The position numbers and the translations under genes were made by a program. The notes beneath the pieces are model-generated. The model was not told the DNA's origin. It did not search any database and was given only the letters and a program-made list of their open reading frames with translations. A stretch of 64,000 nt of DNA from Lysobacterales bacterium (GTDB taxonomy: Bacteria; Pseudomonadota; Gammaproteobacteria; Xanthomonadales; SZUA-5): the NCBI GenBank assembly GCA_046346965.1, contig JAXMHB010000003.1, forward strand, positions 228,778 through 292,777. The letters are read 5' to 3'. Below, piece after piece: positions 1 to 21,901 of the stretch; position 1 is the stretch's first letter; the number at the start of each line of letters is the position of its first letter.

Positions 1-168
1 CCGCCAGACCCAACAAAGCGACTGCATGAAGCAGCTGTAGAAGGCACCGTCGCATATCGCTACTCCGCTCTGCATGCTGCGCAGCATCGCGCGCCCAGGC
101 TGATCGCTTCCTGAGCGCGCAATTCCGGCCGATAGAGACGCTCTTGCCAATCATTGTGCTTGGGCAAA

Positions 169-285
169 AGCGGGGCGGGGGTTAGGGGGCGGGGGACCGG
201 CATTGCGGCGCCCGCGTTGCGCTGTCGCCAACTTGCAGAACAAGTAAGCACGCCGAAGGCGAGACAGGGACTCTGAAAAGTCTCG
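169..285 (+). repeat. Dispersed intergenic repeat element, copy 1 of 3 (about 115 bp). Its 5' end is G4C-G5-TTA-G5C-G5 (180-203), a canonical G-quadruplex motif
   Basis: Near-identical to 8306-8431 and partially to 20678-20720. All three are on the + strand. It produces the same spurious peptide (MPVPRPLTPAPLL) in three antisense ORFs of the track. Confidence 0.75.
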
Positions 286-418
286 ACTCTGCTGCGCGTA
301 CTCGGGCGGCAAACAGGTCCCCGCGACCGCGCGACGGCAGCGGGGCAGTGCTGGTCCCCTGCCCCTCACCCTCGCACCGCTTTCGCGCCCACGCGCTCAT
401 CTTGGGCAGGAGGCACCC

Positions 419-1599: not shown

Positions 1600-3281
1600 C
1601 AGTGGACGGCTCCCGGTACCCGCGTGCTCGCCCATTGCTTCAAATACTCGCGCCCGATCTTGGCGTTGTGGCGGATGTCGACCGGGAAGCGCGGGTAATA
1701 CAGCACATGCCGCAGGGCGCGGGTGTGTTCGTGGCGCTTGGCCATCACCAGCAGTTCCTCGCGGATACGTGCCTGCTGATCGCGGCCCACATCGGGCTCC
1801 AGCTCGACGATCAGCACCGGCTCTTCCTGCCCCTGCGGCCCGACGCCGACCAAGGCGGTGCGGAACACCTGCGGATGGGTGTTAAAGATCGGCTCGACCT
1901 GTTCGGTGCAGAGCGTGCCCTGGGCACTCTCGACCCGCTGCGAGCGCCGACCGCACATCCACAGCCGGCCGGCGTCGTCGAAGTAGCCGAGATCGCCCAT
2001 CCGGTGCACGATGCGCTCGCCCTCGCGGATCTTGCCCAGCGCATCGGCATCCGGGCGATTGAAGTAGCGCTCGGTCGCGGTGGGTCCGACTACCGTGATC
2101 TCGCCGACGCTGCCAGTCGGCAGCTCCAGCTCCGCGCGCCAGTCGGGGATCGGCGCGTCGCTGATGCCGATGATGCGCACCCGATTGGGCGACACCACGC
2201 GGCCGACCAGCGTGCCGGCGCCGTGCTCGGTGCGCGTGCGCGCGTACTCGGTCAGCTCGCGGCCCTCGACCACCGCCACCGGCAGGCACTCGGTGGCGCC
2301 GTAGGGCGTCCACAGCTGAGCGTCCTCCGGCAGCAGCTTGCGCATGCGCTCGACCACGGCCACCGGCACCGGCGCACCGGCGGAAATGACGCGGCGCAAG
2401 GTCGGCAGCTTGACGCCACGCGGCGCGCCCCAGCGCGACAGCGCATTGACCAGCGCCGGCGAGGCAAACAGGTTGGTGACGCCAAAGTCGTGGATGGTCT
2501 GGATCAACTTGCCGGGATCGGCCATCGCCGGACGGGTCGGATCCATCTCCGGGATCACCGTGGTCATCCCGAGCGCCGGATCGAACAGCGCAAACGGCGG
2601 GAAAGTCGGCAGATCGATCTCGCCGGGGCGAATGTCGAAGGCCTGGCGCAGCAAGTCCACCTGCGCCAGAAAATGCCGGTGCTGGTAGACCACGCCCTTG
2701 GGCACGCCGGTGGAGCCGGAGGTAAACAGGATCGCGGCCGCATCGTCCTCGCGGGTGTCGGCCAGCACTGCCTTGCAGCGACGACGCGCGTCACTGCCCT
2801 CGCGGCCGATCTTCAAGAGCTCGGCGTAACTGTGGCCGCCCCAGGCAAAGCGCGGACCGACGGTCACCAGGGTGCGCAGCGTGCGCCGTCCCCAGCCGAG
2901 CGCGATGCGCGCCGCGTGCGCCAGCGGAATGCCGATGAAGGCTTGCGGCTCGGCCTCGGCCAGACACTGCTTGAGCGCCGACTTGGCGATGCCGGGGTCG
3001 ATCAGCACCGGCACCGCGCCGGCCTTGAACAGCGCAAACATGAGTACGAACAGTTCGACACTGGGACGCACCATCAGCACCGTGCGCACGCCGCGGCCGA
3101 TGCCGATGCGGTCGAGTCCGCAGGCGATCGCGTCGGACTCCTCGTCCAGTTGCGCGTAAGTCAGATGCGTGTGTGCCGGGCGCCCGGCCAGATCGCTGCC
3201 GCAGGGTACGAAGATCGCGATCTGATGCGGTCGCTCGCGTGCCATCCGCGTCAGCGCAGAGGCGATATTGACGCTGTCCAT
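1599..3281 (-). CDS. AMP-dependent synthetase/ligase (acyl-CoA synthetase or fatty-acyl-AMP ligase, OleC-like)
   Basis: Adenylate-forming superfamily motifs (FTSGSTGVPKGV, TPYGATE, GDLGYFD). Start chosen at MDSVNIASALTR. The track ORF extends further upstream. Confidence 0.85.
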   Translation of the reverse strand: MDSVNIASALTRMARERPHQIAIFVPCGSDLAGRPAHTHLTYAQLDEESDAIACGLDRIGIGRGVRTVLMVRPSVELFVLMFALFKAGAVPVLIDPGIAKSALKQCLAEAEPQAFIGIPLAHAARIALGWGRRTLRTLVTVGPRFAWGGHSYAELLKIGREGSDARRRCKAVLADTREDDAAAILFTSGSTGVPKGVVYQHRHFLAQVDLLRQAFDIRPGEIDLPTFPPFALFDPALGMTTVIPEMDPTRPAMADPGKLIQTIHDFGVTNLFASPALVNALSRWGAPRGVKLPTLRRVISAGAPVPVAVVERMRKLLPEDAQLWTPYGATECLPVAVVEGRELTEYARTRTEHGAGTLVGRVVSPNRVRIIGISDAPIPDWRAELELPTGSVGEITVVGPTATERYFNRPDADALGKIREGERIVHRMGDLGYFDDAGRLWMCGRRSQRVESAQGTLCTEQVEPIFNTHPQVFRTALVGVGPQGQEEPVLIVELEPDVGRDQQARIREELLVMAKRHEHTRALRHVLYYPRFPVDIRHNAKIGREYLKQWASTRVPGAVH

Positions 3282-8305: not shown

Positions 8306-8431
8306 GGGGCAAAAGCGGGGCGGGGGTGAGGGGGCGGGGGACCGGCACTGCAGTGCATGCGTTGCACGGTCGCCGGCTTGCAGAACGAACGAGCGCGCCG
8401 AAGGCGAGGCAGGGACTCTGAACAAGGCTCG
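8306..8431 (+). repeat. Dispersed intergenic repeat element, copy 2 of 3. The G4 motif is at 8317-8340
   Basis: Aligns with 169-285 over about 115 bp. Sits in the divergent sulfatase/pgk promoter region. Confidence 0.75.
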
Positions 8432-8514
8432 TAAGCGGCCTTGCGAGTCGGAATCGTCTGCCGCCCAGCCCTGCTCTATCCTCCGCGCAGCCTTGTCTAT
8501 CTGCAGGAGTTGCC

Positions 8515-9687
8515 ATGAGCTTCAAGCGCATGTCCGATCTCGCGCTCGCCGGCCAGCGCGTGCTGATCCGTGAAGACCTGAACGTCCCGATCAAGGACGG
8601 CCACATCAGCAGCGTGCAGCGCCTGAGCGCCAGCCTGCCCACCCTGAAAGCCGCACGAGACGCCGGCGCGCGGGTGATGGTGATGTCGCATCTGGGGCGC
8701 CCCAAGGAAGGCGTGTATGACGCCGCCGCCTCGCTGGCGCCGGTGGCGGCGTGGCTGAGTAGCGCGCTCGGCCAGACGGTGCCGCTGGTGCGCGACTGGC
8801 TGGACGGCGTCGAGGTGCAGCCGGGCCAGGTGGTGCTGTGCGAGAACGTGCGCTTCAACGTCGGCGAGGAGAAGAACGACGAGGCGCTGTCGCGGCGCAT
8901 GGCCGCTTTGTGCGACGTTTTCGTGATGGACGCCTTCGGCACCGCGCACCGGGCGCAAGCCTCCACCCACGGCGTCGCCCGCTATGCGCCGATCGCCTGC
9001 GCCGGGCCGCTGCTGGCCGCGGAACTGGATGCGCTGGCCAAGGCGCTGGAACATCCCAAGCGTCCGCTGCTGGCGATCGTCGCCGGCTCCAAGGTGTCGA
9101 CCAAGCTCGAATTGCTGGGCAATCTGGTCGAGAAGGTCGATCAACTGATCGTCGGTGGCGGCATCGCCAACACCTTCATCGCCGCCGCCGGTCACGGCGT
9201 CGGCAAGTCGCTGCACGAGGCGGATCTGCTCGACGCCGCGCGCGCCATCGTGGCCAAGGCGCAGGCGCGCGGCGCCAGCATTCCGCTGCCGCTCGATGTG
9301 GTCACCGCGCCGGCCTTCGCCGCCGATGCAGCCGCCACCATCGAGGGCATCGGCTCGGTGTCCGCCGAGGAAATGATCCTGGACATCGGCCCGCAGACGG
9401 CCGCGCACTACGCCGAACTGATCGCCAAGGCCGGTACGGTGGTCTGGAACGGCCCGGTCGGCGTGTTCGAGTTCGATGCCTTTGGTCAGGGCACGCGAGC
9501 CATCGCCGAGGCCATCGCGAACTCCAGCGCCTTCTCGATTGCCGGCGGCGGCGACACGCTGGCAGCGATCGAAAAATACGGCGTGGAAGATCGGATCGGC
9601 TACATCTCCACCGGCGGCGGCGCGTTCCTGGAGTTCCTCGAAGGCAAGGAACTACCCGCCGTGGCCATCCTGAAGGCGCGCGCCTGA
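8515..9687 (+). CDS. pgk: Phosphoglycerate kinase
   Basis: Full-length PGK homology ([15 protein letters not shown], hinge motifs). Confidence 0.95.
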
Positions 9688-11412: not shown

Positions 11413-12640
11413 GGAATGGAACGGGAAAAGGGAAAAAGGGAAAGGGAAAAAGGAAGAGCGGCGGCCGTTGCAGAGCCCCGTAGGCAGGGTCCTTCGCGTC
11501 CGCGCTGTGCAAGACCGTCCCGTAGGCCGGGTCCTTCGCGTCCGCAGTGTGCAGCTTCGCCGCAGGTTCCCACACGCGAGGCGCCCGGCGCTGTGCTGCG
11601 GCAGGTCTGTCGACCTGGCCGCGCAGGGATCGCGATGGACCTCCGGGGTGTTGCGACCTGCCCGAAAGTGTCTCCCGAGGACCTGCGCAGGGATCTCGAT
11701 GGTGCTGCGAGGGTGTCCCGATACCCTCCCGAGGCTGTCGCGACCTGCCCAAAGGTATCTCGCGAGGACTTGCGCGGGTCTGTCGATGACCTCGCGAGCC
11801 TGTCCCGAGGCCCTGCGCGCATGTCGCGATGTGCTTGCGAGGGTGTCCCGACGTGCTGCGAGCAGATCGCGATGGGCTCGCAGGGGTGGACCTGTGGGCT
11901 TGCGAGGATATCGCGATGAGCTCGCAGCCCCACCGAAGAACCTCGACAGCGTGTCGCGACAGGGTCGTGGCTATGTCGGGACAGCCTCACCGGGTCGTTG
12001 CGATAGGGTCCGCAGCGTATCGCGATAGGCTCGAAAGGTGGTCGGGTGGGGCTCGAAAGGGTGTCGCGACAGGGTCCGCAGGGTATCGCGATATCCACGC
12101 AGGACATCGGGACCTGCGCGCGGGCCCGTCGTGATGGGCTGGCATGCAGGTCCGCAGAGGCGCCGAGGCTGTCGGGAGGGGGCGGCCGGTATAGCCGGGC
12201 AGCGCGATGAGCGTGGTCTGGCGCTCGGCTACCCCGATCCGGAGCGAGTTGTCTTCCGGATGGAAGAGGGAAAAGGAAAAAGGGACAAAGCGCGACCAGC
12301 AAAAGCCGCGGCCGCCGGCGCGATGAATGGCGGTCGCATTAAAGACGCTGCGGCGCGCACGGAGCCGCGCTACATTGCGCCTGGGACGCCGTGAGCCGCC
12401 ACTCCCTTTTTCCCACGGGGCGGGTGGGCAGCGGGGCGATTGGTAGAGAGTGAAAAGTGAAAAGTGAAAAGTGAAAGGAAAAGCCGCGGCCGCCGGCGGA
12501 TCGGACAAGGGTCGCGAGATGAACCCGACTGCGCGCACCGAGCCGCGCTGCGCGACGCTTGCAAGGAACTGTGAAAGGGCAGCGAGCGCTTCACCTTTAA
12601 CTTTTAACTTTTAACTTTTCACTCCATATCCCACCCATCC
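11413..12640. repeat. 1.2 kb non-coding repeat-rich region with several repeat classes. Purine-rich SSRs: (GGAAAAG)n at 11416-11460 and 12262-12290, (GTGAAAA)4 at 12448-12476, (TTTTAAC)3 at 12596-12622. Degenerate tandem units of about 87 and 44 bp. Duplicated blocks of about 150 bp. About 11 phased TCGCGA palindromes
   Basis: Three overlapping spurious ORFs on both strands show no codon-position GC periodicity, unlike flanking genes. All repeats were read directly in the sequence. Confidence 0.7.
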
Positions 12641-13957
12641 TCACCCCACCGGCAACCGCACCACCACCACGCAGCCGCGCGCGTCGGGGCGGTTGGACAG
12701 CGTCAGCGTGCCGCCGTGGTTCTCGGTGATCTGCCGCGCCAGCACCAGACCGACGCCGCTACCGCCGGGTTTGGTCGTGTAGAAGGGCACGAACAAGTTG
12801 TCGGTCTTGGCGAGGCCGGGGCCGTCGTCTTCGATCTCGATCTGTACCCAGTCGTTCTCGGCGTTCAGTCGGATGCGAACGCCGCCATCGGTTTCGAGCG
12901 CGGCTTCGGCGGCGTTCTTGGTCAGGTTGATCAGCGCCTGTTCCAGTTGATCGGGATCGGCATGCAGGCGGATCTCCGGCCAGTCGCCGATGGCAATGCT
13001 GCGGCGCTGTTCCAGCCGGGCGACGCGGCGCAGCAGTCCGGACAGCTCGACCTCCCGCTTGTGCGGCGGCGGCAGGCGCGCCAGTCGGGTGTAGGTGGAC
13101 ATGAAGCGCGTCAGCGACTCGGCGCGATCGCCGATGATGCCGAGCGCGCCCTGGACGTCCTCGCGCCAGTCCTCCGGCAAGGGCTCGCGCGCCACGATGC
13201 CGACTAGCGTGGCCGCCATCGAACGGATCGGCGCCAGCGAGTTATTGAGCTCATGGCCGAGCACGCGGATCAGGCGCTGCCAGGCCTGGCGCTCCTCCTC
13301 ACGCAGCGCGCGCGACAGATCGGTGATCGCCAGCAGTTCGTGCGGGCGACCGCCCTCGCGAAAGGCCGCGCGGCGCAAATCGAAGCTGCCGGCGCCGCCC
13401 GGGAAGGCGGTCTTCAGCGTCGCCGGTGTCTCGGCTTCACAGCAGGCGTCGAGGCCCAGTTCGCGCGCCGTGCGTCCCAGCGCCTGGCTGGCCGGCAGTG
13501 CCAGCAAGCGCTCGCCGGCCGGGTTGATCAGTTTGAGCTGACGCTGATCATCGAGCGCAAAAATGGCGATATCGACGTTCGCCAGCACCTTGGTCAGCAG
13601 CGCGCCCGACTCCTCGACCTTGAGGCGCTGCTCGCGCAGCGTGCTGGCCAGCGCGTTGACCTCCCACAGCACTTCCCCGAGCGCATCGCCGCGCCGCGCC
13701 GAGATGCTGCGCAGACTGTAGTCACCGGCGCGCAGCGCATCGAGCAGATTCACCAGCGTCAGCAAAGGGTGCACGACCTCGCGCCGCAAGCGCCGCCACA
13801 GCCAGGCGGTCAGCGCCACCAGTGCAGCCATCGCCCCGAAACGCAGACCCGGCGTCCCGTCCAGCCGCCACAGGTACACGCAGGCCAGCACCAGCGCCGG
13901 CAGCACCAGCAGCACCGACCAGAGCCCGACCCGCAGCTCGTAGCGCAGGCGGCTCAT
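12641..13957 (-). CDS. Sensor histidine kinase with 2 TM helices, HAMP/PAS, HisKA and HATPase_c domains
   Basis: H-box LGHELNNSLAPI and G-boxes DDGPGL and GGSGVGL. Start chosen at MSRLRYEL. The track ORF extends into the repeat arrays. Confidence 0.85.
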   Translation of the reverse strand: MSRLRYELRVGLWSVLLVLPALVLACVYLWRLDGTPGLRFGAMAALVALTAWLWRRLRREVVHPLLTLVNLLDALRAGDYSLRSISARRGDALGEVLWEVNALASTLREQRLKVEESGALLTKVLANVDIAIFALDDQRQLKLINPAGERLLALPASQALGRTARELGLDACCEAETPATLKTAFPGGAGSFDLRRAAFREGGRPHELLAITDLSRALREEERQAWQRLIRVLGHELNNSLAPIRSMAATLVGIVAREPLPEDWREDVQGALGIIGDRAESLTRFMSTYTRLARLPPPHKREVELSGLLRRVARLEQRRSIAIGDWPEIRLHADPDQLEQALINLTKNAAEAALETDGGVRIRLNAENDWVQIEIEDDGPGLAKTDNLFVPFYTTKPGGSGVGLVLARQITENHGGTLTLSNRPDARGCVVVVRLPVG

Positions 13958-13969
13958 TGGAGCGCCCAG

Positions 13970-14328
13970 AAGCCGAGGGCCCGAAAGCCGAGGGCACGAG
14001 GGCACGAGGGCACGCAAAAGCCGAGGGCACGAGGGCACGAGGGCACGAGGGCACGCGAAAGCGCAGGCACAAGCGGAAGCAACAGCAGTCCTGCCGCATG
14101 CGGATGCAGACCTGCCGTCGGCACCGCCGCCCACAACGCCATGCTGCGATCACCGCGGGGAGCCGCAAGGTCCCCCGGCACCCGCTTCTGCGTGCCCTCG
14201 TGCCCTCGTGCCCTCGTGCCCCGGCTTCTGCGTGCCCTCATGCCCTCATGCCCTTCTGCCTCCGCCTCTGCGTGCCCTCGTGCCCTCATGCCCTTCTGCC
14301 TCCGCCTCTGCGTGCCCTCGTGCCCTCG
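13970..14328. repeat. Inverted arrays of tandem 8-mers filling the intergenic region. (GAGGGCAC)n units are on the left arm (13970-14063) and (GTGCCCTC)n units on the right arm (14184-14328), around a unique core of about 120 bp
   Basis: The left units AAAGCCGAGGGCACGAGGGCACGAGGGCACGC are exact reverse complements of the right units. Fills the gap between the regulator stop and the kinase start. Confidence 0.75.
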
Positions 14329-14338
14329 CAAATCCGCT

Positions 14339-15721
<1,383 letters not shown>

Positions 15722-15932
15722 GCGGGTGTCCGTTGGTGCAGGAATGGAGCGCGCTACGCAGTTTACGTGCCAGGCCGCAGACAGCACGCGCTGGCACGGG
15801 CAGCGCACAACAGTGTCCGATTCCGGACAGCAAAAGCGATCAGCCGTCCGCCTTCATACAACGGTCGTCAGGCCGTCACGCCGCTGTTGCCTGGGCTGCG
15901 CACAGTCCGCGCCATCGCCAGAGGAGCATCTC

Positions 15933-18540: not shown

Positions 18541-19803
18541 ATGGCTTCCGGCAACCGCCTGACGATGTACATCCTGATCGCGCTGGCACTGGGCGTGGTC
18601 TGTGGACTCAGCATCCACCACTACGCTGCCGATCCGGCGTCGACGGTGCAGTACTTCTCGCTGATCACGACGATCTTCCTGCGCCTGATCAAGATGATCA
18701 TCGCGCCGCTGGTGTTTTCCACGCTGGTGGTCGGCATCGCCAAGATGGGCGATGTCGGCACCGTCGGCCGGGTCGGCGTCAAGGCAATGGTGTGGTTCCT
18801 CGGCGCCTCGCTGGTGTCGCTGACGCTGGGGCTGCTGCTGGTCAACTTCTTCCAGCCGGGGGCGACGCTGAATCTGCCGCTGCCGGATGCCAACGCCAAG
18901 TCGGAGATCGTTGCCACCGGCATGAGCCTGGCCGAGTTCGTCAACCATCTGGTGCCGACCAGCATGTTCGACGCCATGGCGCGCAACGAGATTTTGCAGA
19001 TCGTGGTGTTCTCGGTGTTTTTCGGCGTCGGCTGCTCGGCGGTGGGCGCCAAGGCCAAAGTGCTGGTCGACGCGCTGGAAGGCCTGTCCTACGTGATGCT
19101 GCGCGTCACCATGCTGGTGATGTGGTTCGCGCCGGTGGCGGTATTTGCCGCGGTGTCAGCGGCGCTGGCAAAGAGTGGCGCCGGTCTGCTGGTTACCTAC
19201 GGCAAGTTCATGGGCCAGTTCTACTTCGGCATTGTGCTGCTGTGGGTGCTGCTGTTTCTGGGCGCGTGGGCAATGGTCGGCAAACGCGCGATCGCGCTGT
19301 TCAAAGCCGTGCGTGAGCCCACGCTGCTCGCCTTTGCCACTGCATCCAGCGAGGCGGCCTATCCGAAGACGCTGGCGCAGCTGGAGAAATTCGGCTGCAG
19401 CAATCGGGTGGCATCGTTCGTGCTGCCGCTCGGCTACTCCTTCAATCTGGACGGCTCGATGATGTACTGCACCTTCGCGGTGCTGTTCATCGCCCAGGCC
19501 TATGGCATCGAGCTCAGCGCCGGCCAGCAGCTGACCATGCTGCTGATTCTGATGGTCACCAGCAAAGGCATGGCCGGCGTGCCGCGCGCCTCGCTGGTGG
19601 TGATCGCCGCGACGCTGGCGCAGTTCAACATCCCCGAGGCCGGTTTGCTGCTGCTGCTCGGCATCGACCATTTCCTCGACATGGCGCGCTCGGCCACCAA
19701 TGTAATCGGCAACAGCGTCGCCACCGCGGCTGTCTCCGCCTGGGATGGTCAGTTGCGCAGCGAGGCCGAGGTGCAGGCGGAGCTGAAGCAGGCCACGGAC
19801 TGA
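18541..19803 (+). CDS. dctA: Dicarboxylate/amino-acid:cation symporter (DctA/GltP family)
   Basis: Full-length DAACS homology with about 8-10 TM segments. Confidence 0.9.
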   Translation: MASGNRLTMYILIALALGVVCGLSIHHYAADPASTVQYFSLITTIFLRLIKMIIAPLVFSTLVVGIAKMGDVGTVGRVGVKAMVWFLGASLVSLTLGLLLVNFFQPGATLNLPLPDANAKSEIVATGMSLAEFVNHLVPTSMFDAMARNEILQIVVFSVFFGVGCSAVGAKAKVLVDALEGLSYVMLRVTMLVMWFAPVAVFAAVSAALAKSGAGLLVTYGKFMGQFYFGIVLLWVLLFLGAWAMVGKRAIALFKAVREPTLLAFATASSEAAYPKTLAQLEKFGCSNRVASFVLPLGYSFNLDGSMMYCTFAVLFIAQAYGIELSAGQQLTMLLILMVTSKGMAGVPRASLVVIAATLAQFNIPEAGLLLLLGIDHFLDMARSATNVIGNSVATAAVSAWDGQLRSEAEVQAELKQATD

Positions 19804-19807
19804 TGCC

Positions 19808-20647
19808 GTGAGCATGCCCGCCGCCAGCGACTGGTTCCGGGCCGCCTGCCAGCGCGAACTGGAGCGGGCGCACGCGCTACTGGCCGACCCGGCGGCGGAC
19901 CGCAATGCGGCCGTGCACGAGGGCCGCAAATCGCTGCGCCGCGTGCGCGCCTGGCTGCGCCTGCTGGAACGGCCGCGCCGCGAGGCTTTGCACGCGGTGG
20001 ACCAGTCGATCCGCTCGCTGCGACGCACCATCGGACCACTGCGCGATGCTGCCTCGCGCATCGAAGCGCTGGATCGCCTGCGCCAGCGCAAAGCCCTGCG
20101 CCCTGCCCGCACGCTGCTGGCACGCGCGCGCCGGCAGTTGGCCAAGGATCTGGCGCAGCGTTGGGCGGCCAAGCCGATCGACGGCGGCGCCTGGACGCGC
20201 TTGCTCGGCGCGCTGGCGCAACTGGCAGCCGACGTCACCGGCTGGCCGCTGGACGGACTCAGCGAGGCCGAACTGCGCCTCGGCCTGCGGCGCGCGTTTT
20301 TGCGCGCCTGCCGCGAACGCAAGCTGTGCGCTGGCCGTCAGGCTGCCGTCGTGCGTCACGCCTGGCGGGGCAAGGTGCGCATCGTCTTGCTGCAGGGCCA
20401 GTTGCTCGCCAGTTGCGGCAGCGTACCGGGCCTCGACGCCTTGAAGCGACTGGCGCAGAGCCTGGGCAATGAGAACGACCTCGCCCAGGTGTCGCGCGTG
20501 CTTGGCCGGATCGGCTTGAGCGATGCGACGCGGCTGTCGATGCGTCGACTGGTGCAGCAGCAACGCCGGCTGCTCGCCCAGCGCAATGACCAGCGCGCCG
20601 AATCCCTGTTGCGACCGCGATTGCTGCCGAGCTGGCAGCTCGGCTGA
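19808..20647 (+). CDS. CHAD-domain protein
   Basis: Alpha-helical, with conserved HExRKxLRRVRAWLRL-type CHAD motifs. Confidence 0.6.
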   Translation: MSMPAASDWFRAACQRELERAHALLADPAADRNAAVHEGRKSLRRVRAWLRLLERPRREALHAVDQSIRSLRRTIGPLRDAASRIEALDRLRQRKALRPARTLLARARRQLAKDLAQRWAAKPIDGGAWTRLLGALAQLAADVTGWPLDGLSEAELRLGLRRAFLRACRERKLCAGRQAAVVRHAWRGKVRIVLLQGQLLASCGSVPGLDALKRLAQSLGNENDLAQVSRVLGRIGLSDATRLSMRRLVQQQRRLLAQRNDQRAESLLRPRLLPSWQLG

Positions 20648-20677
20648 GTGCCTGGAAGGAAGAGCGGGACGAACAAC

Positions 20678-20720
20678 AGCGGGGCGGGGGTCAGGGGGCG
20701 GGGGACCGGCATTGTCGCCT
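20678..20720 (+). repeat. Dispersed repeat element, copy 3 (truncated, 5' G4 part only). G-runs at 20682-20705
   Basis: CAGCGGGGCGGGGGTCAGGGGGCGGGGGACCGGCATTG matches copies 1 and 2. Confidence 0.7.
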
Positions 20721-20731
20721 TTGCGTGGCTG

Positions 20732-20873
20732 GTCCCGAGTCCCGAGTCCCGAGTCCCGAGTCCCGAGTCCCGAGTCCCGAGTCCCGAGTCCCGAGTCCCG
20801 AGTCCCGAGTCCCAGTCCCAAGTCCCAGTCCCGGGTCCCGAGTCCCGGGTCCCGGGTCCCGAGCCCAGGGTCC
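20732..20873. repeat. Heptanucleotide microsatellite (GAGTCCC)n. Ten perfect units at 20739-20808, flanked by degenerate units
   Basis: Read directly in the sequence. Lies about 110 bp upstream of the Grx-fusion gene start. Confidence 0.85.
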
Positions 20874-20983
20874 CGCCCTTTCACCCACCCGGCCAGCGCT
20901 TCCTTAACACCTCGGTCACGCGCAGTCGCGGCGGCGGCGCTATCCTGATGCGATTGCTTGCTGATCTCAAAAGGATGCTGACC

Positions 20984-21901
20984 ATGACCGATGCCACCCG
21001 CGCACGGATCGAGAAACTGCTCTCCGAGCATCGCGTCGTCCTGTTCATGAAGGGCACCCGTCACGCGCCGCGCTGCGGCTTTTCCGCCACCGCTGCGGGC
21101 ATCCTGAACGATCTGCTGGAGGACTACGCCAGCGTGGACGTGCTCGCCGACGAGGCCATCCGTCAGGGCATCAAGGACTACGGCAACTGGCCGACGATCC
21201 CGCAGCTGTACGTCGATCAGGAGCTGATCGGCGGCTCGGACATCATCAGCGGCATGCACAACTCGGGCGAGTTGCACGATCTGCTCGGCGTGCCGCGCCC
21301 GGATCGCTCGGCGCCCAGCATCGAGATCACGCCCGCCGCCGCCGAGGCCATTCGCAACGGCATGGCCGACGAGCCCGGCATGGCGCTGCATCTGTCCATC
21401 GACGGCCGCTGGCAGGCGCAGTTCATGCTCAAACCGGCGCAGGGCCACGAGATCCGCGCCGAGAGCCAGGGCATCGCCGTGCTGATGGATCTGGCAACCG
21501 CCCAGAAGGCGCGCGGCATGCGGGTGGACTGGGTCGACGACGTGCGCGGCAGCGGGCTGACGATTCAGCTGCCCGAAGCGCCGGCCGGCGTGCAGCCGCT
21601 CAGCGTGGAGCAACTGGCCGAGCGCCTGCGCGCGGGCACGATCACCGTGATCGATGTGCGCCCGGAAGCCGATCGCGCCCGCGCTCCCTTCGTCGCGGCG
21701 CGGGTGCTCGACACGGCGCTGATGCAGGAAGCCGCGCAGTGGCCCAAAGACCGTCCGCTGGCTTTTTTGTGCCACTACGGCAATTCCTCGCGCCAGGCCG
21801 CCGAGCGCTTCCGTGGCCTCGGTTTTCGCCAGATCTACAACGTCGATGGCGGGATCGACGCGTGGTCGCAGCGCGTGGACCCCAGCATTGCCCGTTACTG
21901 A
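20984..21901 (+). CDS. Monothiol glutaredoxin (Grx4/GrxD-type, CGFS) fused to an IscA/HesB-like domain lacking the Cys ligands and a C-terminal rhodanese domain
   Basis: KGTRHAPRCGFS and WPTIPQLYVDQELIGG in the Grx domain. The middle segment ITPAAAEAIRNG...LHLSIDG is IscA-like. The rhodanese domain has active-site Cys in CHYGNSS. Start chosen by alignment to GrxD. The track ORF extends upstream into the repeats. Confidence 0.75.
   Translation: MTDATRARIEKLLSEHRVVLFMKGTRHAPRCGFSATAAGILNDLLEDYASVDVLADEAIRQGIKDYGNWPTIPQLYVDQELIGGSDIISGMHNSGELHDLLGVPRPDRSAPSIEITPAAAEAIRNGMADEPGMALHLSIDGRWQAQFMLKPAQGHEIRAESQGIAVLMDLATAQKARGMRVDWVDDVRGSGLTIQLPEAPAGVQPLSVEQLAERLRAGTITVIDVRPEADRARAPFVAARVLDTALMQEAAQWPKDRPLAFLCHYGNSSRQAAERFRGLGFRQIYNVDGGIDAWSQRVDPSIARY

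What the first reader, a model, noticed from the sequence alone, without database searches (positions are those of the whole stretch)
20732..20873. (GAGTCCC)n heptamer microsatellite upstream of the Grx4-rhodanese fusion gene
Ten perfect units plus about 8 degenerate units of a 7-bp repeat lie 110-250 bp upstream of the start codon at 20984. A truncated copy of the dispersed G4 element directly precedes it. Long perfect heptamer tracts are uncommon in bacterial chromosomes and are classic slipped-strand mispairing substrates. Changes in unit number alter promoter spacing by 7-bp steps, a possible contingency or phase-variation switch. The same element makes the spurious PSPESRV peptide repeats in the track ORF 20648-21901.
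Basis: seen in the sequence. Interest (0 to 1): 0.55.

Follow-up and report, generated by a model that had tools for sequence, protein, structure and literature searches.

The report
Expanded heptamer repeat in intergenic hairpin
A real and strain-variable 7-base repeat lies between two genes of an uncultured Lysobacterales bacterium, but it is the overgrown arm of a small hairpin element of a repeat class already described in Xanthomonas, and it sits upstream of, not inside, the next gene's promoter.

Summary
There are 11 perfect GAGTCCC units at 20737-20813 and about 9 degenerate units up to 20875.

The array is not a free-standing microsatellite. It is the C-rich right arm of a small palindromic element.

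A sister lineage (94% nt identity in the Grx gene, three independent samples) has the same element at the same site with four heptamers per arm, and it folds into a hairpin with 7-nt periodicity. In the window's lineage the right arm has grown to about 21 G-tracts, and to at least 38 in one metagenome strain. At least four array alleles occur among near-identical strains. More distant relatives (83-84% aa) have neither the element nor the array.

A -10-like hexamer conserved in 37 of 50 orthologous loci maps to 20941-20946, 66 bp downstream of the array. Unit number therefore cannot change -35/-10 spacing.

The unit on the G-rich strand, GGGACTC, fits the (GGGANTN)n heptamer repeats described in Xanthomonas by Rehm et al. 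2015. Those repeats typically have four units, often occur as convergent pairs just after stop codons, and have no link to phase variation.

Verdict: a hypervariable VNTR and a new member of a known kind. The promoter-spacing switch is not supported.

The parts
19808..20647 (+). CHAD-domain gene. Its stop codon TGA is at 20645-20647, and the hairpin element begins a few bases after it.
   Evidence: Pfam CHAD, E = 6.4e-12. A CHAD gene occupies the same position in L006, L007, L009-L011, L021, L096 and L098.
20653..20670 (+). Outer left stem segment (TGGAAGGAAGAGCGGGAC) that pairs with 20870-20887 across the whole element.
   Evidence: Inverted repeat I5, 18 nt, 78% complementary. It is paired in the minimum-free-energy folds of the window element and of the L098 element.
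20681..20710 (+). G-rich left arm: GGGGCGG GGGTCAG GGGGCGG GGGACCGGC, four G-tracts at 6-7-nt spacing.
   Evidence: The arm is 86% identical to copy 1 over 37 nt and lies in ungapped register with the reverse complement of the right arm in L098.
20711..20727 (+). Hairpin loop (ATTGTCGCCTTTGCGTG). It corresponds to an internally deleted version of the roughly 130-nt interior of copy 1.
   Evidence: Alignment A1 and folds.
20728..20875 (+). Right arm: GCTGGTCCC followed by the heptamer array. On the minus strand it reads as 21 G3-tracts, GGGACC(AGC) + (GGGACTC)11 + 9 variants.
   Evidence: The homologous arm in L098-L100 has only 4 tracts.
20737..20813 (+). Perfect core of the array, (GAGTCCC)11.
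   Evidence: Regex count.
20814..20875 (+). Degenerate 3' part of the array: 9 units carrying transitions and two 1-nt deletions. This part is identical in L001 and L004 and rearranged in L002 and L003.
20870..20887 (+). Outer right stem segment (GTCCCGCCCTTTCACCCA), partner of 20653-20670.
20941..20946 (+). Conserved -10-like hexamer TATCCT of the Grx-rhodanese gene's own promoter (inferred, not mapped).
   Evidence: A hexamer of this type occurs at -50 to -28 in 37 of 50 orthologous loci, against 3.1 in shuffles. See also the alignments.
20971..20975 (+). Shine-Dalgarno sequence AAGGA, 8 nt before the ATG.
   Evidence: Read from the sequence. Orthologs have GGA at the same distance.
20984..21901 (+). 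Grx4-type monothiol glutaredoxin / (weak Fe-S_biosyn) / rhodanese gene.
   Evidence: Pfam. Orthologs occur across Lysobacterales and are named 'Grx4 family monothiol glutaredoxin' by NCBI.
160..395 (+). Full-length copy 1 of the same palindromic element, with a G-rich left arm, a roughly 130-nt interior and a C-rich right arm GCTGGTCCCCTGCCCCTCACCC.
   Evidence: RNA fold of the + strand is -153.4 kcal/mol, z = -8.3. The - strand gives -132.9, z = -5.1.
8306..8440 (+). Copy 2 of the element: left arm plus interior, with no right arm found. It lies upstream of the phosphoglycerate-kinase-like ORF at 8515.

Best explanation
The array is the over-expanded C-rich arm of a small palindromic intergenic element that sits just after the CHAD gene's stop codon.

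Shown:
- In its short state, in a sister lineage with 94% nt identity, the element has a left arm of four G-rich heptamers (GGGGCAA GGGGCAG GGGGCGG GGGACC), a 17-nt loop, and a right arm of four units (GGTCCC GAGTCCC GAGTCCC GGGTCCC).
- That short form folds as a hairpin of 5-bp helices with 7-nt periodicity. The fold is better on the + strand because of G-U pairs.
- Strains of the window's lineage carry different arrays.

Inferred:
- The two identical adjacent GAGTCCC units seeded replication slippage in the window's lineage.
- The arm grew to about 20 units here, and to at least 38 tracts in another strain. Mutated units were amplified locally into blocks, and alleles diverged between strains.
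- The shorter, imperfect arrays stayed fixed.

The element belongs to the G-rich heptamer SSR class (GGGANTN)n known from Xanthomonas. Those repeats have a mode of four units, often occur as convergent pairs forming stem-loops, and lie close to the upstream gene's stop codon.

The Grx-rhodanese gene has its own conserved promoter box 66 bp downstream of the array. Unit-number changes therefore do not alter core-promoter spacing. The array most likely behaves as a near-neutral hypervariable VNTR. Any effect would fall on the 3' end or read-through of the CHAD transcript, or on local DNA structure. It would not act as an on/off switch of the downstream gene.
For: 1. Anatomy. The array directly continues GCTGGTCCC, which is the start of the right arm in copy 1 (GCTGGTCCCCTGCCCC) and pairs with GGGGGACCGGC of the left arm.
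2. Short allele. L098, L099 and L100 come from three separate sequencing runs and have the same gene order. Their Grx gene differs at 51 of 918 nt. Their 219-bp spacers are identical and carry 4 units per arm. The two arms lie in ungapped register. The + strand RNA fold is -71.5 kcal/mol (z = -2.07) against -53 (z = +0.93) for the - strand. The two 4-tract G-arrays sit on opposite strands.
3. Hypervariability of the long allele. The window, L001 (at least 38 tracts, with blocks (GGGACTT)5, (GGGACCC)3 and GGGATTT), L002 and L003 (different 3' unit orders) all differ, although their Grx genes differ at only 4-9 of 918 nt. All four short-read contigs of this lineage end inside the array.
4. Recent origin. 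The closest other relatives, L095 (84% aa) and L096/L097 (83% aa), have CHAD-Grx spacers of about 50-120 bp with no element and no array. None of 45 orthologous loci has a short-period array upstream of the gene.
5. Length threshold. The imperfect 4-unit (GGGAAAA)-type array at 11423 is identical in three other strains.
6. Promoter downstream. The -10-like hexamer occurs in 37 of 50 orthologs, against 3.1 in shuffles, and maps to 20941-20946.
7. Known class. Rehm et al. 2015 (PMC4692102) describe (GGGAATC/GGGANTN)n repeats of 2-26 units with a mode of 4. They are 89-93% intergenic and lie on average 28 nt from the 5' ORF. In Xcc, convergent inverted-pair arrangements were found in 70 cases among the 186 repeats. 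Most are transcribed, and phase variation was judged unlikely.
8. Not unique to this locus. The window holds other convergent short-period array pairs just after stop codons, at 12449/12596 and 13974/14191. Relatives hold more.
Against: - No transcription start, terminator or expression data exist for this organism. The promoter position rests on a conserved -10-like box only. No convincing -35 was found, and the sigma-70 consensus scan found nothing in 20300-21300.
- Allele comparisons rest on short-read metagenome assemblies. Four contigs are truncated within the array, so unit totals are lower bounds, and perfect runs may be collapsed. L004 cannot be told apart from the window within the array.
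- Neutrality is inferred, not shown. An array 66 bp upstream of a -10 box could still affect an upstream activator site, DNA curvature or supercoiling.
- The array contains no canonical GGGAATC unit, so it does not meet Rehm et al.'s operational search definition.
- The + strand folding advantage comes from one small hairpin with a modest z-score.
Confidence: 0.75

Rival explanations
1. Contingency or rheostat locus. Slippage changes the unit number, and this tunes or switches transcription of the Grx4-rhodanese gene. The effect would come from moving an upstream promoter or activator site, or from changing the length of a 5' leader.
For: The geometry resembles hmw1A/hmw2A, which have (TGAAAGA)13-38 arrays about 70-106 bp upstream of the start codon and expression modulated by unit number (PMC2651432). 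Unit number varies between near-identical strains. Steps of 7 bp change the helical phase.
Against: The array lies wholly upstream of the conserved -10-like box and of any -35 position. Relatives drive the gene from spacers of about 50-120 bp that lack any array. The downstream gene is a conserved redox/sulfur-metabolism gene, not a surface or restriction-modification gene. Similar arrays follow unrelated genes in the same window. In Xanthomonas the class shows no association with phase-variable functions. Nothing upstream of the array is conserved that could serve as an activator site, since the element itself is a recent insertion.
Confidence: 0.1
2. Functional non-B or RNA element. The convergent G-tract arrays form G-quadruplexes: the left arm on the sense strand, and (GGGACTC)n on the template strand with an i-motif opposite. 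Alternatively, about 140 nt of unpaired C-rich RNA acts as a Rho-loading site. In either case array length would set how much transcription reads through from the CHAD gene into the Grx-rhodanese gene.
For: The array provides 21 G3-tracts with 4-nt loops on the minus strand and four G4-5 tracts on the plus strand, against 0.02 expected. The short allele has exactly four tracts per arm, the minimum for a G4. Related Xanthomonas oligonucleotides form G4s and i-motifs in vitro, and most such repeats are transcribed. In the RNA fold the expanded part of the array is essentially unpaired.
Against: No function was found for the class in Xanthomonas. Other hairpin elements of the same build, in this window and in relatives, use units that cannot form G4s (AGTGAAA, GTGAGTA, GGTAAGT). 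G4 potential is therefore not the common denominator. The array RNA still has 29% G. No terminator-like site was detected. Free variation between strains argues against a tuned length.
Confidence: 0.12
3. Artefact or coding repeat. Either the array is an assembly error, or it encodes a PSPESRV-repeat N-terminal extension of the Grx-rhodanese protein.
For: The ORF 20648-21901 is open and in frame with the gene. Short-read assemblers break at this locus.
Against: Independent assemblies from several samples contain the same units and flanks. The ORF begins immediately after the CHAD stop codon and crosses the conserved -10 box and Shine-Dalgarno sequence. Orthologs start at the ATG that corresponds to 20984. 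The reading frame through the array differs between alleles, as in L003. The unit has no stop codon in any + frame.
Confidence: 0.02

Closest known systems
G-rich heptamer SSRs of xanthomonads, (GGGAATC / GGGANTN)n (Rehm et al. 2015, PLoS One, PMC4692102)
   Same: The unit is a heptamer with GGGA at positions 1-4 and T at position 6 (GGGACTC). The array is intergenic, between co-oriented ORFs. The G-rich strand of the left arm lies on the coding strand within 50 bp of the stop codon. The arrays form a convergent pair on opposite strands that can make a stem-loop. The short allele has four units per arm. Length varies widely between close relatives. The host belongs to the same order, Lysobacterales/Xanthomonadales.
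   Different: No canonical GGGAATC unit is present. The left arm uses GGGGCNN units. The host is an uncultured, non-Xanthomonas lineage from wastewater-type metagenomes, whereas the paper reported not finding the repeats in other gamma-proteobacteria. Here one arm only has expanded five-fold or more, and the short and long states are both seen at one orthologous site.
H. influenzae hmw1A/hmw2A promoter heptamer repeats, (TGAAAGA)n (Dawid et al. 1999, as summarised in PMC2651432)
   Same: A heptamer unit, 13-38 copies, about 70-106 bp upstream of the start codon, variable between strains, generated by slippage.
   Different: The hmw repeats lie within the promoter/leader region and measurably modulate expression of surface adhesins. 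Here the array is upstream of the inferred core promoter of a housekeeping-type gene. It is also part of a hairpin element at the 3' end of the preceding gene. No expression data exist.
Xanthomonas VNTR/MLVA microsatellites with units of 7 bp or less (MLVA-14 for X. citri; PMC4045669)
   Same: Short-unit, mostly intergenic tandem repeats with very high mutation rates, used as strain markers. This matches the behaviour seen here across metagenome strains.
   Different: Those loci are chosen as typing markers and are not analysed as parts of hairpin elements. No typing scheme exists for this organism.
REP/REPIN and MITE-like palindromic intergenic elements (titles and abstracts only: PMC3116915, PMC3733652; otherwise my own background knowledge)
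   Same: A dispersed multi-copy element (3 copies in 21 kb) with complementary arms forming a long hairpin, found in intergenic positions near gene ends, with internally deleted derivatives.
   Different: The arms are built of tandem 6-8-nt units and differ between copies, whereas REP arms are conserved. No RAYT or transposase link was examined, and no clean target-site duplication was found.
Intergenic TAACTGA heptamer direct repeats of Beggiatoaceae and cyanobacteria (PMC4679880, abstract only)
   Same: Abundant intergenic heptamer direct repeats with variable copy number and a proposed post-transcriptional role.
   Different: The unit, the phyla and the arrangement differ (direct arrays, not convergent pairs). 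No homology is implied.

Membership tests
G-rich heptamer SSR class of xanthomonads (GGGANTN)n, Rehm et al. 2015 | Tandem heptamer unit with a G3 tract; consensus conserved at positions 1-4 (GGGA) and 6 (T) | tested here: met
   The minus strand reads (GGGACTC)11 plus variants GGGACTT, GGGACCC and GGGACT.
G-rich heptamer SSR class of xanthomonads (GGGANTN)n, Rehm et al. 2015 | Operational definition: the array contains the canonical GGGAATC heptamer at least once | tested here: not met
   There is no GGGAATC unit in the window array, in L001 or in L098. The array is therefore a sequence variant of the class, not a literal hit to their search rule.
G-rich heptamer SSR class of xanthomonads (GGGANTN)n, Rehm et al. 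2015 | Intergenic, between co-oriented ORFs, and closer to the 5' neighbouring ORF (average 28 nt), with the G-rich strand on the coding strand downstream of a stop codon | tested here: met
   The CHAD (+) stop codon ends at 20647 and the G-rich left arm starts at 20681 on the + strand. The next ORF (+) starts at 20984.
G-rich heptamer SSR class of xanthomonads (GGGANTN)n, Rehm et al. 2015 | Frequent convergent pairs on opposite strands able to form a stem-loop; modal length of four units | tested here: met
   L098 has 4-tract arrays at 2009-2032 (+) and 2062-2085 (-). They fold as a hairpin, and the arms are in register.
G-rich heptamer SSR class of xanthomonads (GGGANTN)n, Rehm et al. 2015 | G-quadruplex and i-motif formation by the repeat oligonucleotides; transcription of the repeat | not testable with these tools
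   Only the sequence motif (G3N4)n could be checked. This needs CD spectroscopy and RNA-seq.
Phase-variable (contingency) promoter SSR | Hypermutable repeat whose unit number differs between closely related strains | tested here: met
   At least four alleles occur in the window lineage, plus a 4-unit allele in the sister lineage.
Phase-variable (contingency) promoter SSR | Repeat located between -35 and -10, over a regulator site, or in the leader, so that unit number changes expression | tested here: not met
   The conserved -10-like box is at 20941-20946, 66 bp downstream of the array end. This is a comparative inference and no TSS has been mapped. A leader from an upstream promoter is not excluded.
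Phase-variable (contingency) promoter SSR | Controlled gene encodes a surface, host-interaction or restriction-modification function | tested here: not met
   The gene encodes Glutaredoxin + Rhodanese domains and is conserved across Lysobacterales.
Phase-variable (contingency) promoter SSR | Reversible change of expression with unit number | not testable with these tools
   This needs reporter fusions or expression data from strains with different alleles.
REP/MITE-like dispersed palindromic element | Several dispersed copies with complementary terminal arms forming a stable hairpin | tested here: met
   Three copies share the left arm. Copy 1 folds with z = -8.3 and the L098 element with z = -2.07.
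REP/MITE-like dispersed palindromic element | Signs of transposition: target-site duplication, empty sites, a cognate transposase or RAYT | tested here: inconclusive
   Empty sites exist in L095 and L096. An 8-bp direct repeat CTTGGGCA lies at 159-166 and 401-408 around copy 1, but it overlaps the stem and sits 10 nt beyond it. No transposase search was done.

The most novel reading that the evidence does not exclude
The array may be one visible state of a wider, undescribed class of gene-3'-end hairpin elements in Lysobacterales. In these elements both arms are tandem 7-8-nt units. The units differ from copy to copy (GGGGCNG/GAGTCCC, AGTGAAA, GGGAAAA, GTGAGTA, GGTAAGT, AGGGCCC, CGAGGGCA) yet stay complementary within each copy, and two copies (elements A and B) share a conserved core.

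That pattern would imply concerted evolution of the arms, by slippage plus hairpin-templated correction, under selection for an RNA stem rather than for G-quadruplexes. A one-sided expansion such as this one would convert a closed hairpin into about 140 nt of unpaired C-rich RNA, with G4-prone template DNA. It would then act as a heritable, mutable rheostat for read-through from the CHAD gene into the Grx-rhodanese gene.
Probability: 0.1. Interest if true: 0.6.

Novelty: new member of a known kind. Interest (0 to 1): 0.3.

Why it matters
- This locus gives an unusually clean natural series for one G-rich heptamer repeat at a single orthologous site: absent, then 4 units, then about 20, then at least 38.
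- The series shows that a four-unit hairpin arm is the seed, and that expansion begins once two adjacent units are identical.
- It extends the Xanthomonas heptamer-repeat class to uncultured, non-pathogenic Lysobacterales from wastewater-type metagenomes.
- Neighbouring elements with non-G4 units suggest that hairpin formation, not quadruplex formation, may be the shared property of the class.
- The locus would make a good strain marker.
- It also explains why short-read assemblies of this organism break here.
- It does not provide evidence for a new regulatory switch.

Tried and rejected
- The sigma-70 promoter and intrinsic-terminator consensus scan of 20300-21300 found nothing. The promoter was therefore placed by comparative conservation instead.
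- Rfam searches, over the whole window at gathering thresholds and over 20500-21100 at E <= 1, gave only two tRNAs elsewhere and sub-threshold eukaryotic miRNA/snoRNA noise on the repeat.
In hindsight a flank pattern such as CCAGCGCTTCCTTAACACCTC would have been the better use.
- An exact-protein look-up of the CHAD protein, and of the NCBI MAG variant P0121 (409-kb contig), found nothing on record. No long contig of the window's own lineage could therefore be compared.
- A full-text search for the unit strings GGGACTC/GAGTCCC returned only unrelated primer sequences.
- A whole-region RNA fold of 20645-20900 is no more stable than shuffles (z = 0.04) because the expanded array is unpaired. Only the short allele and copy 1 show significant folding.
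- No convincing -35 hexamer was found. TTAACA at 20904-20909 is 31 nt from the -10 box, which is too far. TCACGCGC, 17 nt upstream of the -10, is shared with L096 but does not resemble a -35.
- Target-site duplication around copy 1 was considered and left unresolved.
- A coding interpretation of the PSPESRV repeat was rejected.
Full report
**1. Observation**

The window (66.6% G+C) contains a period-7 tandem array at 20732-20875. TRF reports 20.9 copies, 90% matches and score 225.

Exact counting gives (GAGTCCC)11 at 20737-20813. About nine degenerate units follow, carrying transitions and two 1-nt deletions, and the array ends near 20875. It is the only perfect array of at least 5 units with period 4-12 in the window.

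On the minus strand the array reads as 21 G3-tracts. The pattern GGGANTNGGGANTNGGGA matches 10 times, against 0.00 in 100 dinucleotide shuffles.

- a sodium:dicarboxylate symporter gene at 18541-19803;
- a CHAD-domain gene at 19808-20647;
- a glutaredoxin/(weak Fe-S_biosyn)/rhodanese gene at 20984-21901;
- a 101-aa ORF, followed by a PPK2 gene.

**2. Organism**

The best matches to the Grx-rhodanese protein among species-representative genomes are uncultured Lysobacterales/Rhodanobacteraceae MAGs at 75-77% identity, one of them at 82% over a partial match. Tahibacter follows at about 68% and Dokdonella at about 60%. Exact or near-exact copies occur only in short metagenome contigs, from an activated-sludge assembly and several Logan-assembled sequencing runs.

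**3. What the array is part of**

The G-rich motif just upstream, GGGGCGGGGGTCAGGGGGCGGGGG at 20681-20704, has two more copies in the window, at 172-195 and 8317-8340.

Copy 1 (about 160-395) is a complete palindromic element. Its G-rich left arm pairs with a C-rich right arm, GCTGGTCCCCTGCCCCTCACCC. The + strand RNA fold is -153.4 kcal/mol with z = -8.3. The - strand gives -132.9 with z = -5.1.

At the finding locus the left arm is followed by a 17-nt loop and then by GCTGGTCCC, the start of the right arm. The array runs straight on from there. An outer stem, 20653-20670 with 20870-20887, encloses the whole.

That element is an internally deleted copy of the dispersed family.

**4. The decisive comparison**

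A second protein in the same 90% cluster (P0122) led to three contigs from three different sequencing runs: L098, L099 and L100. All three span CHAD, the spacer, Grx-rhodanese and the 101-aa ORF. Their Grx gene differs from the window's at 51 of 918 nt.

Their spacer is 219 bp, against 336 bp in the window, and it is identical in all three. It carries the same element with:
- left arm GGGGCAA GGGGCAG GGGGCGG GGGACC;
- right arm GGTCCC GAGTCCC GAGTCCC GGGTCCC.

That is four G-tracts on each strand, in convergent orientation. The arms lie in ungapped register. They fold into 5-bp helices separated by 2x2 internal loops, giving a stem with 7-nt periodicity. The + strand fold is -71.5 kcal/mol (z = -2.07). 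The - strand fold is -53 kcal/mol (z = +0.93), because several pairs are G-U.

More distant relatives have CHAD-Grx spacers of only about 50-120 bp, with no element and no array. These are L095 at 84% aa and L096/L097 at 83% aa. None of 45 orthologous loci from other species has a short-period array within 700 bp upstream of the gene.

The element was therefore gained in the common ancestor of the window lineage and the L098 lineage. The long array is a later expansion of its right arm.

**5. Variation**

Four contigs encode a Grx-rhodanese protein identical to the window's, with 4-9 nt differences in 918 (L001-L004). All four end inside the array, which is the usual behaviour of short-read assemblers at such repeats.

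- L001 shares the window's 3' degenerate units. It has 7 rather than 11 perfect units, and upstream of them at least 19 further units arranged in blocks such as (GGGACTT)5, (GGGACCC)3 and GGGATTT. That gives at least 38 tracts in all.
- L002 and L003 have different 3' unit orders, with extra AGAGCCC units and fewer GGGTCCC units.
- L004 matches the window as far as it goes.

The window lineage therefore holds at least four array alleles, and the sister lineage holds the 4-unit allele.

By contrast, an imperfect array of about 4 units of the (GGGAAAA) type at 11423 is identical in three other strains. The 4-unit allele of the present element is likewise identical in three samples.

This is the length- and purity-dependent instability expected of slipped-strand mispairing. 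The mechanism itself is inferred from established knowledge of SSRs and was not observed directly.

**6. Where the promoter is**

I lined up the 75 nt upstream of the start codon in the orthologous loci. A -10-like hexamer starts 28-50 nt before the ATG in 37 of 50 loci. It is TATCAT in 21, TAGACT in 5, TATCCT in 5 and TATGCT in 2. Shuffled controls give a mean of 3.1 and a maximum of 9.

The hexamer is present whether the upstream gene is CHAD on the same strand or an unrelated divergent gene. In the window it is TATCCT at 20941-20946.

A Shine-Dalgarno sequence, AAGGA, lies at 20971-20975. It marks ATG 20984 as the true start, not the in-frame ATGs at 20948 or 20975.

The array ends 66 bp upstream of the -10 box, so it lies outside any -35/-10 spacer. 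I could not identify a convincing -35 hexamer, and the consensus scan found nothing. The promoter assignment is therefore comparative inference.

The ORF 20648-21901 that reads PSPESRV through the array is spurious. It begins right after the CHAD stop codon, crosses the -10 box and the Shine-Dalgarno sequence, and changes frame between alleles.

**7. Comparison with what is known**

Rehm et al. 2015 (PMC4692102) describe G-rich heptamer SSRs, (GGGAATC)n or heterogeneous (GGGANTN)n, in Xanthomonas campestris and X. axonopodis. Their findings were:
- 183-186 arrays per genome, of 2-26 units, with a strong mode at four units;
- 89-93% of arrays intergenic, mostly between co-oriented ORFs, and on average 28 nt from the 5' ORF;
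- convergent pairs on opposite strands, able to form stem-loops, found in 70-75 cases per genome;
- most arrays transcribed;
- G4 and i-motif formation in vitro;
- extensive length variation between close relatives;
- no enrichment near surface or virulence genes, so a role in phase variation was judged unlikely and the function left open.

The present element matches this description point by point:
- the unit GGGACTC fits GGGANTN;
- the two arrays form a convergent pair;
- the short allele has four units per arm.

Two things differ. The array contains no canonical GGGAATC unit. The host is a non-Xanthomonas member of the order.

That array lies within the promoter/leader region of adhesin genes, which is not the case here. 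Xanthomonas MLVA-14 microsatellites (7 bp or less; PMC4045669) show that such arrays behave as fast-evolving strain markers.

**8. Mechanism, with likelihoods**

Most likely (about 0.75), a four-unit hairpin arm with two identical adjacent units crossed the slippage threshold. It has since expanded and diversified as a near-neutral VNTR. The element as a whole is a hairpin at the 3' end of the CHAD gene.

The alternatives are:
- an hmw-like rheostat of the Grx-rhodanese gene (about 0.10);
- a G4/i-motif or Rho-loading element that tunes read-through (about 0.12);
- an artefact or coding repeat (about 0.02).

None of these can be excluded without TSS mapping and reporter assays.

**9. Context noticed along the way**

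The same window holds other convergent pairs of short-period arrays, each starting within about 20 nt of a stop codon:
- (AGTGAAA)4 at 12449 with (TTTAACT)4 at 12596, which fold at z of about -5 on either strand;
- (CGAGGGCA)~10 at 13974 with (CGTGCCCT)~17 at 14191, between a response-regulator gene and a histidine-kinase gene.

Two adjacent elements share a conserved core but have different heptamer arms.

Relatives carry GTGAGTA/ACTCACT (L043), AGGGCCC/CTGGGCC (L017, L025, L022) and GGGGCAG/CCCCTGC (L007) pairs. L021 has a GGTAAGT/ACTTACC hairpin in the very same CHAD-Grx spacer.

Several of these units cannot form G-quadruplexes. Hairpin formation, rather than G4 formation, may therefore be the property these elements share.

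**10. Verdict**

The feature is real and hypervariable. It is a new member of a known repeat class, and the proposed promoter-spacing switch is not supported. Interest is modest (0.3). The value of the locus lies in the clean series of absent, 4-unit, 20-unit and at-least-38-unit states, and in extending the class beyond Xanthomonas.

Noticed in passing
window 160-395 (copy 1) and 8306-8440 (copy 2): These are two further copies of the palindromic element with the G-rich left arm. Copy 1 is complete and folds very stably (+ strand -153.4 kcal/mol, z = -8.3). Copy 2 has the left arm and interior but no right arm. An 8-bp direct repeat, CTTGGGCA, lies at 159-166 and 401-408 around copy 1. It could be a target-site duplication, but it overlaps the stem on one side.
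   Followed up: partly
window 12440-12630: A convergent pair, (AGTGAAA)4 at 12449-12476 and (TTTAACT)4 at 12596-12623, flanks a core of about 120 nt. The pair begins about 15 nt beyond the end (12641) of the minus-strand ORF 12641-14134, read here as a histidine-kinase gene. It folds as a hairpin with 7-nt periodicity (z = -5.4 and -4.7 on the two strands).
   Followed up: partly
window 12255-12415 versus 12440-12630: Two adjacent elements share a conserved core (AAAAGCCGCGGCCGCCGGCG...GGTCGC...GCGCGCAC.GAGCCGCGCT; 73% column identity overall). Their arm units differ: GGGAAAA-type in one and AGTGAAA in the other. The arms seem to evolve faster than the core.
   Followed up: partly
window 13974-14055 and 14182-14328: Octamer arrays (CGAGGGCA)~10 and (CGTGCCCT)~17 lie in inverted orientation, with higher-order periods of 33 and 40 nt and arms up to 100% complementary over 26 nt. 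They fill the 380-bp spacer between two minus-strand ORFs (14339-15808 and the ORF ending at 12641), read here as a response-regulator and a histidine-kinase gene. Neither ORF was checked against Pfam.
   Followed up: no
window 11413-12640: This is a stretch of about 1.2 kb with no convincing gene, packed with repeats. It contains a (GGGAAAA)-type array at 11423, 43- and 87-bp tandem repeats rich in TCGCGA palindromes at 11649-11927, and many long inverted repeats up to 12114.
   Followed up: no
L021 2400-2480 (MAG Lysobacterales RX3_metabat.bin.54; 77% aa ortholog): The same CHAD-Grx spacer holds a different heptamer-arm hairpin: GGTAAGT GGTGAGT GGTAAGT ... ACTTACTTACCACTTACC. Closer relatives (83-84% aa) have no hairpin there. 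This suggests repeated colonisation of the spacer, or fast turnover of such elements.
   Followed up: no
L043 937-1072; L017 691-777; L025 878-962; L022 1077-1140; L007 420-510: Related Lysobacterales MAGs carry convergent heptamer-array pairs with other units: GTGAGTA/ACTCACT, AGGGCCC/CTGGGCC and GGGGCAG/CCCCTGC. The L017, L025 and L022 pairs sit at one orthologous site just after a stop codon.
   Followed up: partly
L001-L004, L085: All short-read metagenome contigs of the window's lineage stop inside the array or inside the G-rich arm. This locus therefore breaks assemblies systematically, and unit counts taken from such contigs are lower bounds.
   Followed up: yes
window 20926-20940: A (GGC)-rich run, GCGGCGGCGGCGC, sits immediately upstream of the -10-like box in the window and in L098. 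It is absent from the corresponding position in L021 (CGCGCAGTCG-TATCCT). This is a second small length polymorphism, and it lies inside the putative promoter.
   Followed up: no
window 20984-21901 and loci L049-L084: The three-part Grx / (weak Fe-S_biosyn) / rhodanese architecture is conserved across Lysobacterales. It also occurs in some Myxococcota/Polyangiales MAGs at 37-46% identity. Bdellovibrionota hits cover only the glutaredoxin domain.
   Followed up: no
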